This document shows, piece after piece, positions 35,552 to 38,515 of a DNA stretch of 64,000 nucleotides. Made by a program: the position numbers and the translations under genes. The first letter of the stretch is position 1. The number at the start of each line of letters is the position of its first letter. A model generated the notes under the pieces. That model worked only from the letters and a program-made list of their open reading frames with translations, searched no databases and was not told the DNA's origin. This DNA comes from an uncultured delta proteobacterium (lineage in GTDB: Bacteria > Myxococcota > Myxococcia > SLRQ01): assembly GCA_963727485.1 (NCBI GenBank), contig CAVSGM010000003.1:726636-790635 (forward strand). The letters run 5' to 3'.

Positions 35552-36279
35552 TCCTCGTCGGGCTCACCGCCGACGAGGCCGAGGCGACCGAGGCGTCGCC
35601 CCTGGCGTCCTACGTCCTCAAGGCCCCCTACGCCGACGCCGTGGCCCGGGCCGGGGCGCTGCCCGTGATCCTCCCCTACCTCGACGCCGGCGCCGTCGAC
35701 GCCCTCCTCGACCGCCTCGACGCGGTGGTGGTCACCGGCGGCGCCTTCGACGTCTCGCCGGCCCTCTACGGCGCCGCCCCGGCGCCGGGCCTCGGCCCCC
35801 TCAAGGCCGCGCGCACCGCCTTCGAGGCGGCCCTCACCCAGGGCGCCCTCGCCCGGGGCCTGCCCCTCCTCGGGGTCTGCGGGGGGATGCAGCTCCTCGC
35901 CGTCCTCGCCGGCGGCACCCTCCTCCAGGATCTGCCCACCGAGCGCCCGGACGCCCTCGCCCACGAGCAGGCCACCGACAGCCGCCAGCCGGCCCACCCG
36001 GTGGCCGTCACCGCCGGCACCCGCCTCGCCGCGGCGGTGGGCGAGGGCGGCCTGGACGTCAACTCCACCCACCACCAGGCGGTGGACGATCCCGGGCGCC
36101 TCACCGTGAGCGCCGTCGCCCCCGACGGCGTGGTCGAGGCCGTGGAGGACCGGTCCGCGGCCTTCGTGGTCGGCGTCCAGTGGCACCCCGAGCGCCTCGT
36201 CGCCCGCGACCCGCGCCACCAGGGCCTCTACGACGCCCTGGTCGCCGCCGCCGCCGCCCGCGCCGCCGGAGGGGCCTGA
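35548..36279 (+). CDS. Peptidase C26 / PuuD-like glutamine amidotransferase
   Basis: [24 protein letters not shown]. Confidence 0.92.
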
Positions 36280-37209
36280 TGGCCGACGCCGATCTGTTCA
36301 ACCGCGTCCGCAAGACCTGGCGCCACCGCCGGAAGTGGGCGGCGCGCCAGGGCCTCGAGGCCTTCCGGGTCTACGACCGGGACATCCCCGAGCACCCCTA
36401 CACCGTGGACTGGTACGCGGGCCGGATCGTCTGCGTCCACTACCCCTCGCGCCGGCGTCCCGGGGGTATCCCCGAGGCCGAGCTCCGCGCCGGCCTCGCC
36501 GAGATCTTCGAGGCGGTGGCCTCGGAGGTGTACCTGAAGACCAAGACCCCCCGGCGCCCGGGCCGAAGCCAGTACGAGAAGCTCGCCGACACCGGCCGGC
36601 GCTTGCCGGTCGCCGAGCAGGGCCTGCGCTTCTGGGTGAACCTCACGGACTACGTGGACACCGGGCTCTTCCTCGACCACCGGCTGACCCGGGCGCGGGT
36701 CCGGGACGAGGCGCGGGGCAAGCGCTTCCTCAACCTGTTCTGCTACACCGGCGCCTTCACGCGTCTACGCCGCCGCCGGGGGCGCCGCGGCGACCACCTC
36801 GGTGGACCTCTCCAACACCTACCTCGCCTGGACCCGGGACAACCTCATCCTCAACGACCTCGAGGCCAAGGCCCACACCCAGGTTCGCGCCGACGTCCTC
36901 CGGTGGATCACCACCGGCCCCGCCGGCGCCTTCGACCTCGCCGTCCTCGACCCCCCGAGCTTCTCCCGCTCCAAGGGCATGCGCACCGACTTCGAGCTCC
37001 AGGCGGATCACCCGGTGCTCCTCGCCGCCACCCTGCGCCTGCTGGCCCCCGGCGGGGTCCTCTACTTCTCGACCAACTACCGGGGCTTCGAGCTCTCGGA
37101 GTCCGCCGCCGCCGGTTGCGAGATCGAGGAGCTCACCCCGGCCTCCATCCCCGAGGACTTCCGGGACCGGCAGGTCCACCGGTGCTTCCGCATCGTGACG
37201 CCCCGGTGA
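36279..37209 (+). CDS. RlmK-like SAM-dependent rRNA methyltransferase, frameshift near 36762
   Basis: [27 protein letters not shown], then VDLSNTY, DPPSF and YFSTN in a second frame. Confidence 0.88.
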
Positions 37210-37230
37210 GGGCCGGGTAGGCTTTGGGCC

Positions 37231-37607
37231 ATGGCCCCGGATCCCACCGACCCGCGCCACTGGCTCCTCTACGACGGCGACTGAGGCTTCTGACGCCGCG
37301 CCGTCGCCTGGGTCAGGCGACACGACCGCGCCGGGGCGCTCAACCCGGAGCCCTTCCAGACGGCCCCCTCGCCGCCGATGACCCCCGAGCTGCGCCGGGC
37401 CTGCGCCCGGGCCGTCCACGTGGTCACCTCAAGCGGCCAGGTGCTCCGGGCGGGGCGGGCGGCCCTCTTCGTCCTCGAACGCACCGGCCACCCGATCCTC
37501 GGGCGGGTCCTGGGGTGGCCGCCGATGGTCTGGGCGGTGGAGCTGACGTACCGGGTGGTGGCGGCCAACCGCGGCTTCTTCGCCCGGTTCCTCTTCCGGC
37601 CGCCGCG

Positions 37608-37611
<4 letters not shown>
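37231..37611 (+). CDS. DCC1/DUF393-like thiol-disulfide oxidoreductase, candidate selenoprotein with UxxU motif
   Basis: MAPDPTDPRHWLLYDGD-TGA-GF-TGA-RRAVAWV..., in frame with ORF 37378..37611 (ending YRVVAANRG); TGAs at 37282-37284 and 37291-37293. Confidence 0.85.
37303..37321 (+). promoter_or_regulatory. Candidate bacterial SECIS upper stem-loop
   Basis: Perfect 8-bp stem GTCGCCTG / CAGGCGAC with GGT loop; loop begins 17 nt after the second TGA and 26 nt after the first. Confidence 0.75.

Positions 37612-38515
<904 letters not shown>

What the first reader, a model, noticed from the sequence alone, without database searches (positions are those of the whole stretch)
37282..37338. One SECIS-like hairpin positioned to serve two UGA codons 9 nt apart
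Seen: a perfect stem GTCGCCTG (37303-37310), loop GGT, CAGGCGAC (37314-37321), with possible weaker lower pairing (cgcc 37294-37297 with ggcg 37335-37338). The loop lies 17 nt after the second UGA and 26 nt after the first. The 3' arm uses AGG and CGA Arg codons where neighbouring genes mostly use CGC/CGG, suggesting selection on RNA structure. Established: bacterial SECIS elements lie just 3' of the UGA and have a small G/GU-containing apical loop bound by SelB. Inference: a single SECIS may recode both UGAs, which is mechanistically unusual and relevant to multi-Sec protein engineering.
Basis: partly seen in the sequence, partly recalled or inferred. Interest (0 to 1): 0.8.

Follow-up and report, generated by a model that had tools for sequence, protein, structure and literature searches.

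The report
One SECIS hairpin, two selenocysteine codons
A small redox-protein gene has UGA "stop" codons at both active-site cysteine positions followed by one conserved RNA hairpin, and natural relatives with only the first or only the second UGA keep that hairpin in the same place, so the single hairpin likely directs selenocysteine insertion at both codons, in a protein family missing from a 2026 selenoprotein catalogue.

Summary
The hairpin is real. It lies in a 126-codon DCC1-like (PF04134) oxidoreductase gene (37231-37611) whose CxxC is written TGA-x-x-TGA, in a genome with selA, selB, selD and tRNA-Sec. Its six core pairs form fully in 59 of 65 UxxU homologs found without using the hairpin, against 0 of 25 close CxxC homologs, with compensatory changes. 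No second conserved hairpin exists. Natural UxxC genes (5 of 5, unbiased scan) and CxxU genes (8 of 8, hairpin-anchored scan) keep it in the same register, so it plausibly works at both 26 and 17 nt. A catalogued SelL-related family uses the 25-26 nt spacing in 24 of 28 genes. The proposed lower stem is not conserved. One SECIS recoding both UGAs is the best reading (about 0.8) but is untested. The idea is not new: it was proposed in 2026 for UXXU hydrogenases, and bacterial UxxU families are catalogued. The DCC family is absent from a 119-family list. This scan noted the same family before in other genomes. New member of a known kind, and a compact test case for dual-UGA decoding.

The parts
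37231..37611 (+). Gene for a 126-residue DCC1-like (DUF393/YuxK-type) thiol-disulfide oxidoreductase, ATG to TAG, with two in-frame TGA codons
   Evidence: Translation with TGA=U; Pfam PF04134 62.6 bits against cut-off 27.8; 392 homologs at E<=0.001, best 66-72% identical; the protein collection holds only the 77-aa piece from ATG 37378, which lacks the active site (P0013)
37273..37293 (+). Active-site motif D15-x-x-U18-x-x-U21, matching DxxCxxC of Cys homologs
   Evidence: C18 invariant, C21 at least 90% conserved in 78 aligned sequences; AlphaFold2 model puts it after strand 10-14 at the start of helix 19-31
37282..37284 (+). First TGA (codon 18, predicted Sec), 26 nt before the loop
   Evidence: UxxC homologs with this TGA alone keep the hairpin
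37291..37293 (+). Second TGA (codon 21, predicted Sec), 17 nt before the loop and 11 nt before the conserved 6-bp core
   Evidence: CxxU homologs with this TGA alone keep the hairpin
37303..37321 (+). Bacterial SECIS-type hairpin: 8 bp here, conserved core 37305-37310 with 37314-37319; the two outer pairs are variable
37311..37313 (+). Apical loop GGU; first G invariant in 65 of 65 UxxU homologs (it is also the third base of a conserved Trp codon)

Best explanation
The hairpin at 37303-37321 is conserved and covaries only in TGA-bearing members of a DCC1-like oxidoreductase family, and it is likely a canonical bacterial SECIS that recodes both UGA codons to selenocysteine, one after the other. 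Shown: the gene, the UxxU motif, the Sec machinery, the hairpin's conservation, the lack of any second conserved hairpin, and natural UxxC and CxxU genes with the hairpin in the same register. Inferred: SelB-GTP-Sec-tRNA binds the G-containing loop through its C-terminal winged-helix domains. With the first UGA in the A site, the 18-nt spacer before the stem has slack. After insertion SelB leaves and the ribosome moves three codons. The 6-bp core then begins 11 nt after the second UGA, still just outside the mRNA entry channel, and a second SelB complex loads on the same loop before the ribosome melts it. The product would be a thioredoxin/glutaredoxin-like redox protein able to form a diselenide; its substrate is not identified.
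For: Family and motif. Machinery in this genome: tRNA-Sec with TCA anticodon, selB over cut-off with both winged-helix domains, selA, selD with its own in-frame TGA. Of 70 genomes carrying UxxU or UxxC genes, 65 gave a selA hit and 61 a tRNA-Sec hit; all 70 have one or the other. Six core pairs complete in 59 of 65 unanchored UxxU segments (the other 6 have five), 0 of 25 close CxxC, although 20 of those 25 genomes also have selA. Covariation: 49 cells changed on both sides, 0 of 500 shuffles as high, slid controls 16-41% paired against 90%; RNAalifold finds only this helix. The arm Arg codon is AGR in 57 of 57 against 31 of 507 downstream Arg codons. A model-conforming hairpin centres on this loop in 61 of 65; no other register exceeds 3 of 65. 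UxxC: 5 of 5 from a scan not anchored on the hairpin have all six pairs; CxxU: 8 of 8 distinct from the anchored scan. Starred branches force at least 2 changes for UxxC and 3 for CxxU on a quick tree. Both spacings fit the published 16-37 nt model. Best G-loop hairpins of other selenoprotein candidates in this genome lie at about 19 (Fdh), 21 (Prx), 25 (SelL-related), 32 (DsbA) and 33 nt (SelD), and 24 of 28 SelL-related UxxC genes have theirs at 25-26 nt.
Against: No experiment, proteomics or RNA data. Unanchored UxxC genes are few (5, plus L356 with a broken frame; L357 also looks frameshifted) and mostly from one clade. Single-UGA forms nest among UxxU forms, so the hairpin may partly be inherited, and one anchored CxxC gene (L526) still has all six pairs. 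The 17-nt spacing is shorter than any other spacing seen in this genome and near the model's lower limit. The loop's first G and two inner pairs coincide with a Trp codon that Cys homologs also conserve, so their invariance is not independent evidence. The number of pairs with compensatory change did not beat the shuffles (171 of 500), and related sequences inflate the other measures. PMC13582414 warns that one or both UGAs of UXXU motifs may be read as Cys (75).
Confidence: 0.8

Rival explanations
1. The hairpin is a SECIS for only one of the two UGAs; the other is passed by SECIS-independent, low-efficiency read-through (Sec, Cys or Trp by near-cognate decoding), perhaps helped by the locally bound SelB complex or by ribosome pausing.
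For: No direct test exists. E. coli fdhF recoding is known to be sensitive to UGA-SECIS spacing (recalled, from no call). The 17-nt spacing is at the edge of the model and shorter than the other spacings in this genome.
Against: Genes with only the first TGA and genes with only the second TGA both keep the hairpin in register, mostly in full-length frames. UxxU is by far the commonest Sec form (92 of 119 classified loci), which fits poorly with one codon relying on leakage.
Confidence: 0.1
2. One SECIS serves both codons, but one or both are read as cysteine by a tRNA-ReC (SelC*) system, giving a mixed or all-Cys motif.
For: PMC13582414 reports tRNA-ReC enriched in genomes with UXXU hydrogenases and raises this caveat. 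This genome is 93% complete.
Against: ARAGORN lists 59 tRNAs here, with one TCA tRNA-SeC and one ordinary 74-nt GCA tRNA-Cys. Among 70 Sec-type genomes only 5 had a second tRNA-Sec-like hit, and these are Tyr, Leu or Ser tRNAs. The Rfam model with strict filters could miss tRNA-ReC.
Confidence: 0.05
3. A structural switch: an alternative helix pairs the second UGA region (37289-37294) with the loop and 3' arm (37312-37317), and refolding between the two forms times or regulates the two insertions.
For: The alternative helix is 94.9% paired in the 65 UxxU segments, with some double changes (0 of 500 shuffles as high).
Against: The covariation did not replicate in 71 metagenome segments (Fisher p 0.51 and 0.68, against 0.014 and 0.056 in the first set). 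The pairing follows from the Phe-UGA junction sharing CUG with the 5' arm, and it is broken in UxxC genes. RNAalifold picks the SECIS helix. With the first UGA in the A site these bases would be inside the ribosome (inference).
Confidence: 0.03
4. A pseudogene or assembly error, with a chance hairpin in GC-rich DNA.
For: The neighbouring methyltransferase gene has a frameshift near 36761, so this assembly has errors; the local fold is not exceptional.
Against: 135 UxxU protein rows in the tree from many phyla, TGA exactly at the two catalytic Cys codons, full-length frames after them, co-occurrence with Sec machinery and independent contigs with the same letters.
Confidence: 0.02

Closest known systems
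Bacterial SECIS / SelB recoding (E. coli fdhF type; consensus model of Zhang and Gladyshev as given in PMC13188914)
   Same: Hairpin inside the coding sequence just 3' of UGA, 3-nt loop starting with G, 8-bp stem, spacing within 16-37 nt, -12.5 kcal/mol, canonical SelB in the genome
   Different: One hairpin lies downstream of two UGAs and fits the model for both; no conserved lower stem
UXXU-type group 4 [NiFeSe] hydrogenases (PMC13582414, 2026)
   Same: Two predicted Sec three residues apart; SECIS core shared between UXXU and CXXU forms; the authors propose one SECIS for both UGAs
   Different: Unrelated metalloenzyme; there the UXXC type is a separate group, whereas this family has UxxU, UxxC, CxxU and CxxC with one fixed hairpin register; no tRNA-ReC found here
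SelL-related / Prx-like thiol:disulfide oxidoreductases (NF040769, PF00578; UxxC and UxxU), FmdB family, NF041115 metal-binding protein, TsoB (UxxxxU)
   Same: Catalogued bacterial proteins with two close Sec residues; SelL-related genes here place their G-loop hairpin 25-26 nt after the first UGA, the same geometry
   Different: Different protein families; all 28 Sec-type SelL-related genes parsed here are UxxC, none UxxU
Cys-type DCC1-like thiol-disulfide oxidoreductases (PF04134; DUF393, YuxK-type; Arabidopsis DCC1)
   Same: Same domain and DxxCxxC position; up to 72% identity; Arabidopsis DCC1 is described as reducing a complex I subunit (PMC7598583)
   Different: Both Cys codons are TGA, and the codons after the motif are reshaped to form the hairpin; PF04134 is not in the 119-family table of PMC13188914

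Membership tests
Bacterial SECIS element | Lies in the coding sequence 3' of an in-frame UGA, loop 16-37 nt away | tested here: met
   26 and 17 nt; criterion from PMC13188914
Bacterial SECIS element | 3-9 nt apical loop, 4-16 bp upper stem, energy at or below -7.5 kcal/mol | tested here: met
   3-nt loop, 8 bp, -12.5 kcal/mol
Bacterial SECIS element | G in one of the first two loop positions, often followed by G or U | tested here: met
   GGU; first G in 65 of 65 UxxU homologs, but it is also part of a conserved Trp codon
Bacterial SECIS element | Structure conserved in Sec forms and lost in Cys forms | tested here: met
   59 of 65 against 0 of 25; covariation 0 of 500 shuffles
Bacterial SECIS element | Bound by SelB and required for UGA read-through | not testable with these tools
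   Needs binding or reporter assays
Bacterial SECIS element | Match to a curated Rfam SECIS family | tested here: not met
   No SECIS family among the 5 weak Rfam matches up to E 10 in 36800-37800; PMC13188914 notes that many bacterial SECIS elements do not resemble each other, so this is not a defining feature
Bacterial selenoprotein | In-frame TGA aligned with conserved Cys of homologs | tested here: met
   Both TGAs align with CxxC
Bacterial selenoprotein | selA, selB, selC, selD in the genome | tested here: met
   70 of 70 homolog genomes have selA or tRNA-Sec
Bacterial selenoprotein | Selenium shown in the protein | not testable with these tools
   Needs 75Se labelling or mass spectrometry
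DCC1-like oxidoreductase PF04134 | Score above the Pfam gathering cut-off over the whole domain | tested here: met
   62.6 bits against 27.8, profile 1-108 of 113
DCC1-like oxidoreductase PF04134 | DxxCxxC motif near the N-terminus | tested here: met
   D15-x-x-U18-x-x-U21, with Sec predicted in place of Cys
DCC1-like oxidoreductase PF04134 | Thioredoxin-like fold | tested here: inconclusive
   Model pLDDT 85.8 with the motif at a strand-helix junction; Foldseek gave no match at E<=0.001, weak top rows mostly Trx, Grx and GST folds
tRNA-ReC (SelC*) Cys recoding | A second tRNA-Sec-like tRNA with UCA or GCA anticodon | tested here: not met
   Not found in this genome or among 5 second hits in 70 genomes; the search may miss divergent ones

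The most novel reading that the evidence does not exclude
An uncatalogued, multi-phylum two-selenocysteine DCC oxidoreductase family in which one fixed SECIS, 26 and 17 nt from the two UGAs, is loaded twice by an ordinary SelB, forming a diselenide active site. The 26-nt register, shared with SelL-related genes, would be a general geometry that lets UxxC genes gain a second Sec without a new SECIS, and the natural UxxU/UxxC/CxxU/CxxC series maps SelB's working range.
Probability: 0.7. Interest if true: 0.68.

Novelty: new member of a known kind. Interest (0 to 1): 0.58.

Why it matters
Bacterial Sec insertion is usually drawn as one SECIS at a set distance from one UGA. How bacteria decode UxxU is open; the 2026 hydrogenase paper only raises the single-SECIS possibility. 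This 381-nt gene has all four natural motif states around one fixed hairpin, which makes the question cheap to test and could guide making two-Sec proteins with one in-frame SECIS. It also adds a family of well over a hundred distinct sequences that gene callers cut to an inactive C-terminal piece (77 aa here) and that a 119-family catalogue lacks.

Tried and rejected
Lower stem 37294-37297/37335-37338: not conserved. Alternative helix over the second UGA: did not replicate. A second SECIS for the first UGA: no register above 3 of 65. Rfam: no relevant match. NCBIfam: no family for the protein. The Tyr/Phe-based pattern scan gave only 3 homologs in 120 loci because the subfamily mostly has Trp there. 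The protein-based genome scan gave 1 UxxU among 80 loci. Conserved gene neighbours: none; the largest shared neighbour cluster covers 4 of 48 loci, so context gives no substrate. Expression: no RNA holder listed. Fold search: no significant match; the wider structural search was not obtained. The careful tree did not finish; the quick tree has 77 of 182 inner branches open. My genome-wide TGA screen missed this gene and SelD, so it is not a full selenoproteome; two further candidates from it were dropped (one ends a PheS-like frame, one had no Pfam or NCBIfam match; 62-64). Literature searches for DUF393 with selenocysteine and DCC family with selenoprotein found 0 papers; DCC1 with selenocysteine and UGA found 1 unrelated paper; searches listed no title on a bacterial single-SECIS, two-UGA experiment. 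Haft and Tolstoy 2025, Haft and Gwadz 2023 and Shchedrina 2007 were not held.

Full report
Observation. The stem is in the MFE fold, but the region is not unusually stable for this GC-rich DNA (z -1.37), and perfect 8-bp/3-nt hairpins occur 349 times in the 5.55-Mb genome. Contigs of two public runs from different studies carry both TGAs and the hairpin (one record with 0 other letters over 37247-37488, one with 2 over 37179-37392, none listed at these sites).

The gene. Reading TGA as U gives a 126-residue protein from ATG 37231 to TAG 37611. It is a PF04134 DCC1-like oxidoreductase (62.6 bits, cut-off 27.8) with no NCBIfam family. Of 392 homologs at E<=0.001 the 120 best were listed, and the TGAs align with their CxxC. 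The collection holds only the 77-aa downstream piece of this gene. An AlphaFold2 model (pLDDT 85.8) places the motif after strand 10-14 at the start of helix 19-31. Foldseek gave nothing at E<=0.001; weak rows are mostly thioredoxin, glutaredoxin and GST folds. The genome has tRNA-Sec with a TCA anticodon, selA, a selB with both winged-helix domains and a TGA-bearing selD.

The family. In 401 genomes of the phylum, 129 had a match; of the 30 best loci 7 (this one included) were UxxU and 23 CxxC, and no listed match had a single TGA (the tally of 129 includes the unpublished genome G196, on which nothing else rests). Record titles of the Sec forms include Myxococcota, Chloroflexota, Planctomycetota, Ca. 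Entotheonella, Methylomirabilota/Rokubacteria, Armatimonadaceae, Thermoanaerobaculia and Sericytochromatia. Of 70 genomes holding unanchored UxxU or UxxC genes, 65 gave a selA hit (64 over cut-off) and 61 a tRNA-Sec hit; every one has at least one of the two. Of 25 genomes with close CxxC genes, 20 also have selA, so the hairpin follows the TGA, not the genome's Sec trait.

The hairpin is under selection. After removing identical 72-nt segments, all six core pairs (37305-37310 with 37314-37319) form in 59 of 65 unanchored UxxU genes, 5 of 5 unanchored UxxC genes, 0 of 25 close and 0 of 76 distant CxxC genes. Redrawing synonymous codons predicts 0.7 of 65. On the 65-row alignment the 8-bp stem is 90.4% paired with 49 cells changed on both sides, no shuffle of 500 as high, and slid controls reach 16-41%; the count of covarying pairs did not beat the shuffles (171 of 500). 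The changes cross codon positions: a synonymous Ala change on the 5' arm goes with Arg to Lys on the 3' arm, and Ala to Val goes with a synonymous Arg change. The arm Arg codon is AGR in 57 of 57 cases against 31 of 507 downstream. RNAalifold finds this helix alone. Limits: the loop G and two inner pairs overlap a conserved Trp codon, kin inflate these counts, and 1 of 4 close anchored CxxC segments keeps all six pairs.

One SECIS or two. Scanning all registers for model-type hairpins, 61 of 65 UxxU genes have one centred on this loop and no other register exceeds 3 of 65. The natural single-UGA genes are the key control: UxxC genes must decode the first UGA and keep only this hairpin at 26 nt; CxxU genes keep it at 17 nt (8 of 8 distinct, but found by an anchored scan). 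Most have full-length frames; L357 looks frameshifted. On a quick tree of 187 rows the mixed forms sit among UxxU forms, with starred branches forcing at least 2 changes for UxxC and 3 for CxxU; 77 of 182 inner branches are open, so direction is not settled. Both spacings fit the published 16-37 nt model (PMC13188914). Other selenoprotein candidates in this genome, matched to Fdh, Prx, SelL-related and DsbA families plus SelD, have their best G-loop hairpins at about 19, 21, 25, 32 and 33 nt (the Fdh and Prx hairpins are weak, -5.3 and -7.0 kcal/mol). In 30 SelL-related loci from 301 genomes, 28 are UxxC and 24 of these have the hairpin at 25-26 nt, the geometry of the first UGA here.

Mechanism. 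Shown: sequence, conservation, machinery, mixed variants. From established knowledge (PMC10778597): SelB binds Sec-tRNA and the SECIS to bring the tRNA to the adjacent UGA. Inferred: the same loop is loaded twice. At the first UGA the 18-nt spacer has slack; at the second the conserved core starts 11 nt downstream, close to the distance I recall for the E. coli fdhF upper stem (recalled, from no call), with the variable outer pairs free to fray at the entry channel. The product would be a diselenide-capable redox protein; 48 loci with wide flanks share no neighbour in more than 4, so no substrate can be named. Rivals: one UGA read without the SECIS (0.10); Cys insertion by tRNA-ReC, for which no tRNA was found (0.05); a refolding switch whose covariation failed to replicate (0.03); pseudogene or error (0.02).

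What is known. PMC13188914 (passages, and section 7 parts 1-2 of 3 with the whole Table 1) lists 119 prokaryotic families, among them UxxU forms of Prx-like, FmdB and NF041115 proteins and UxxxxU TsoB, and has no DCC, DUF393, YuxK or PF04134 entry. PMC9312934 and PMC12013277 (passages) also lack DCC and DUF393. PMC2398784 (passages) reports UxxU in a marine Prx-like family. PMC13582414 (passages and the whole Discussion) proposes that one SECIS decodes both UGAs of UXXU hydrogenases, as a possibility. PMC7598583 (passages) describes Arabidopsis DCC1. Searches found no paper linking this family to selenocysteine; searches were seen as listings only, apart from the papers named here. The library lacks most subscription papers, three relevant papers were not held, and I read no supplements; candidate lists there, such as Deng et al. 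2026, could already include this family.

Earlier notes of this scan. Eight AI notes on other genomes describe the same family, five as two-Sec and three as UxxC. I read them after forming my view and count them as leads, not support.

Verdict. The element is a canonical bacterial SECIS in an uncatalogued selenoprotein family; dual use is likely (0.8), already proposed for another family, and untested. New member of a known kind; interest 0.58.

Noticed in passing
window 36279-37209 (+): The SAM-dependent methyltransferase gene (PF10672) just upstream is split by a frameshift near 36761; one low-depth contig of a public run lacks one base there, so it is probably an assembly error.
   Followed up: partly
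L556:35-640 (-), G000:C3 near 504703: A DsbA-like gene with an in-frame TGA has a hairpin whose core nearly matches the DCC SECIS, but 32 nt after its UGA.
   Followed up: partly
L562-L591: SelL-related UxxC genes of this phylum place a covarying G-loop hairpin 25-26 nt after the UGA in 24 of 28 cases, the same register as the DCC family.
   Followed up: yes
L553:358-1653 (-), G000:C3 near 466881: A formate dehydrogenase alpha-subunit gene with TGA at the Sec position runs out of frame after about 410 matched residues, probably another assembly frameshift.
   Followed up: no
L498 and L499 (one metagenome contig): Two UxxU DCC-like copies lie about 2.5 kb apart on one contig; one scores weakly and has mismatches in the hairpin.
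   Followed up: no
window 37402-37419 (+), residues 58 and 63: A third Cys (C58, at least 90% conserved) and an invariant His (H63) mark this subfamily and may belong to the active site.
   Followed up: no
L012 and L013 (G000:C3 and C12): Identical GTPase hits on two contigs, and identical candidates on C4 and C13, suggest duplicated stretches in the assembly.
   Followed up: no
L526: A CxxC homolog keeps the complete hairpin, possibly a recent reversion from a Sec form.
   Followed up: partly
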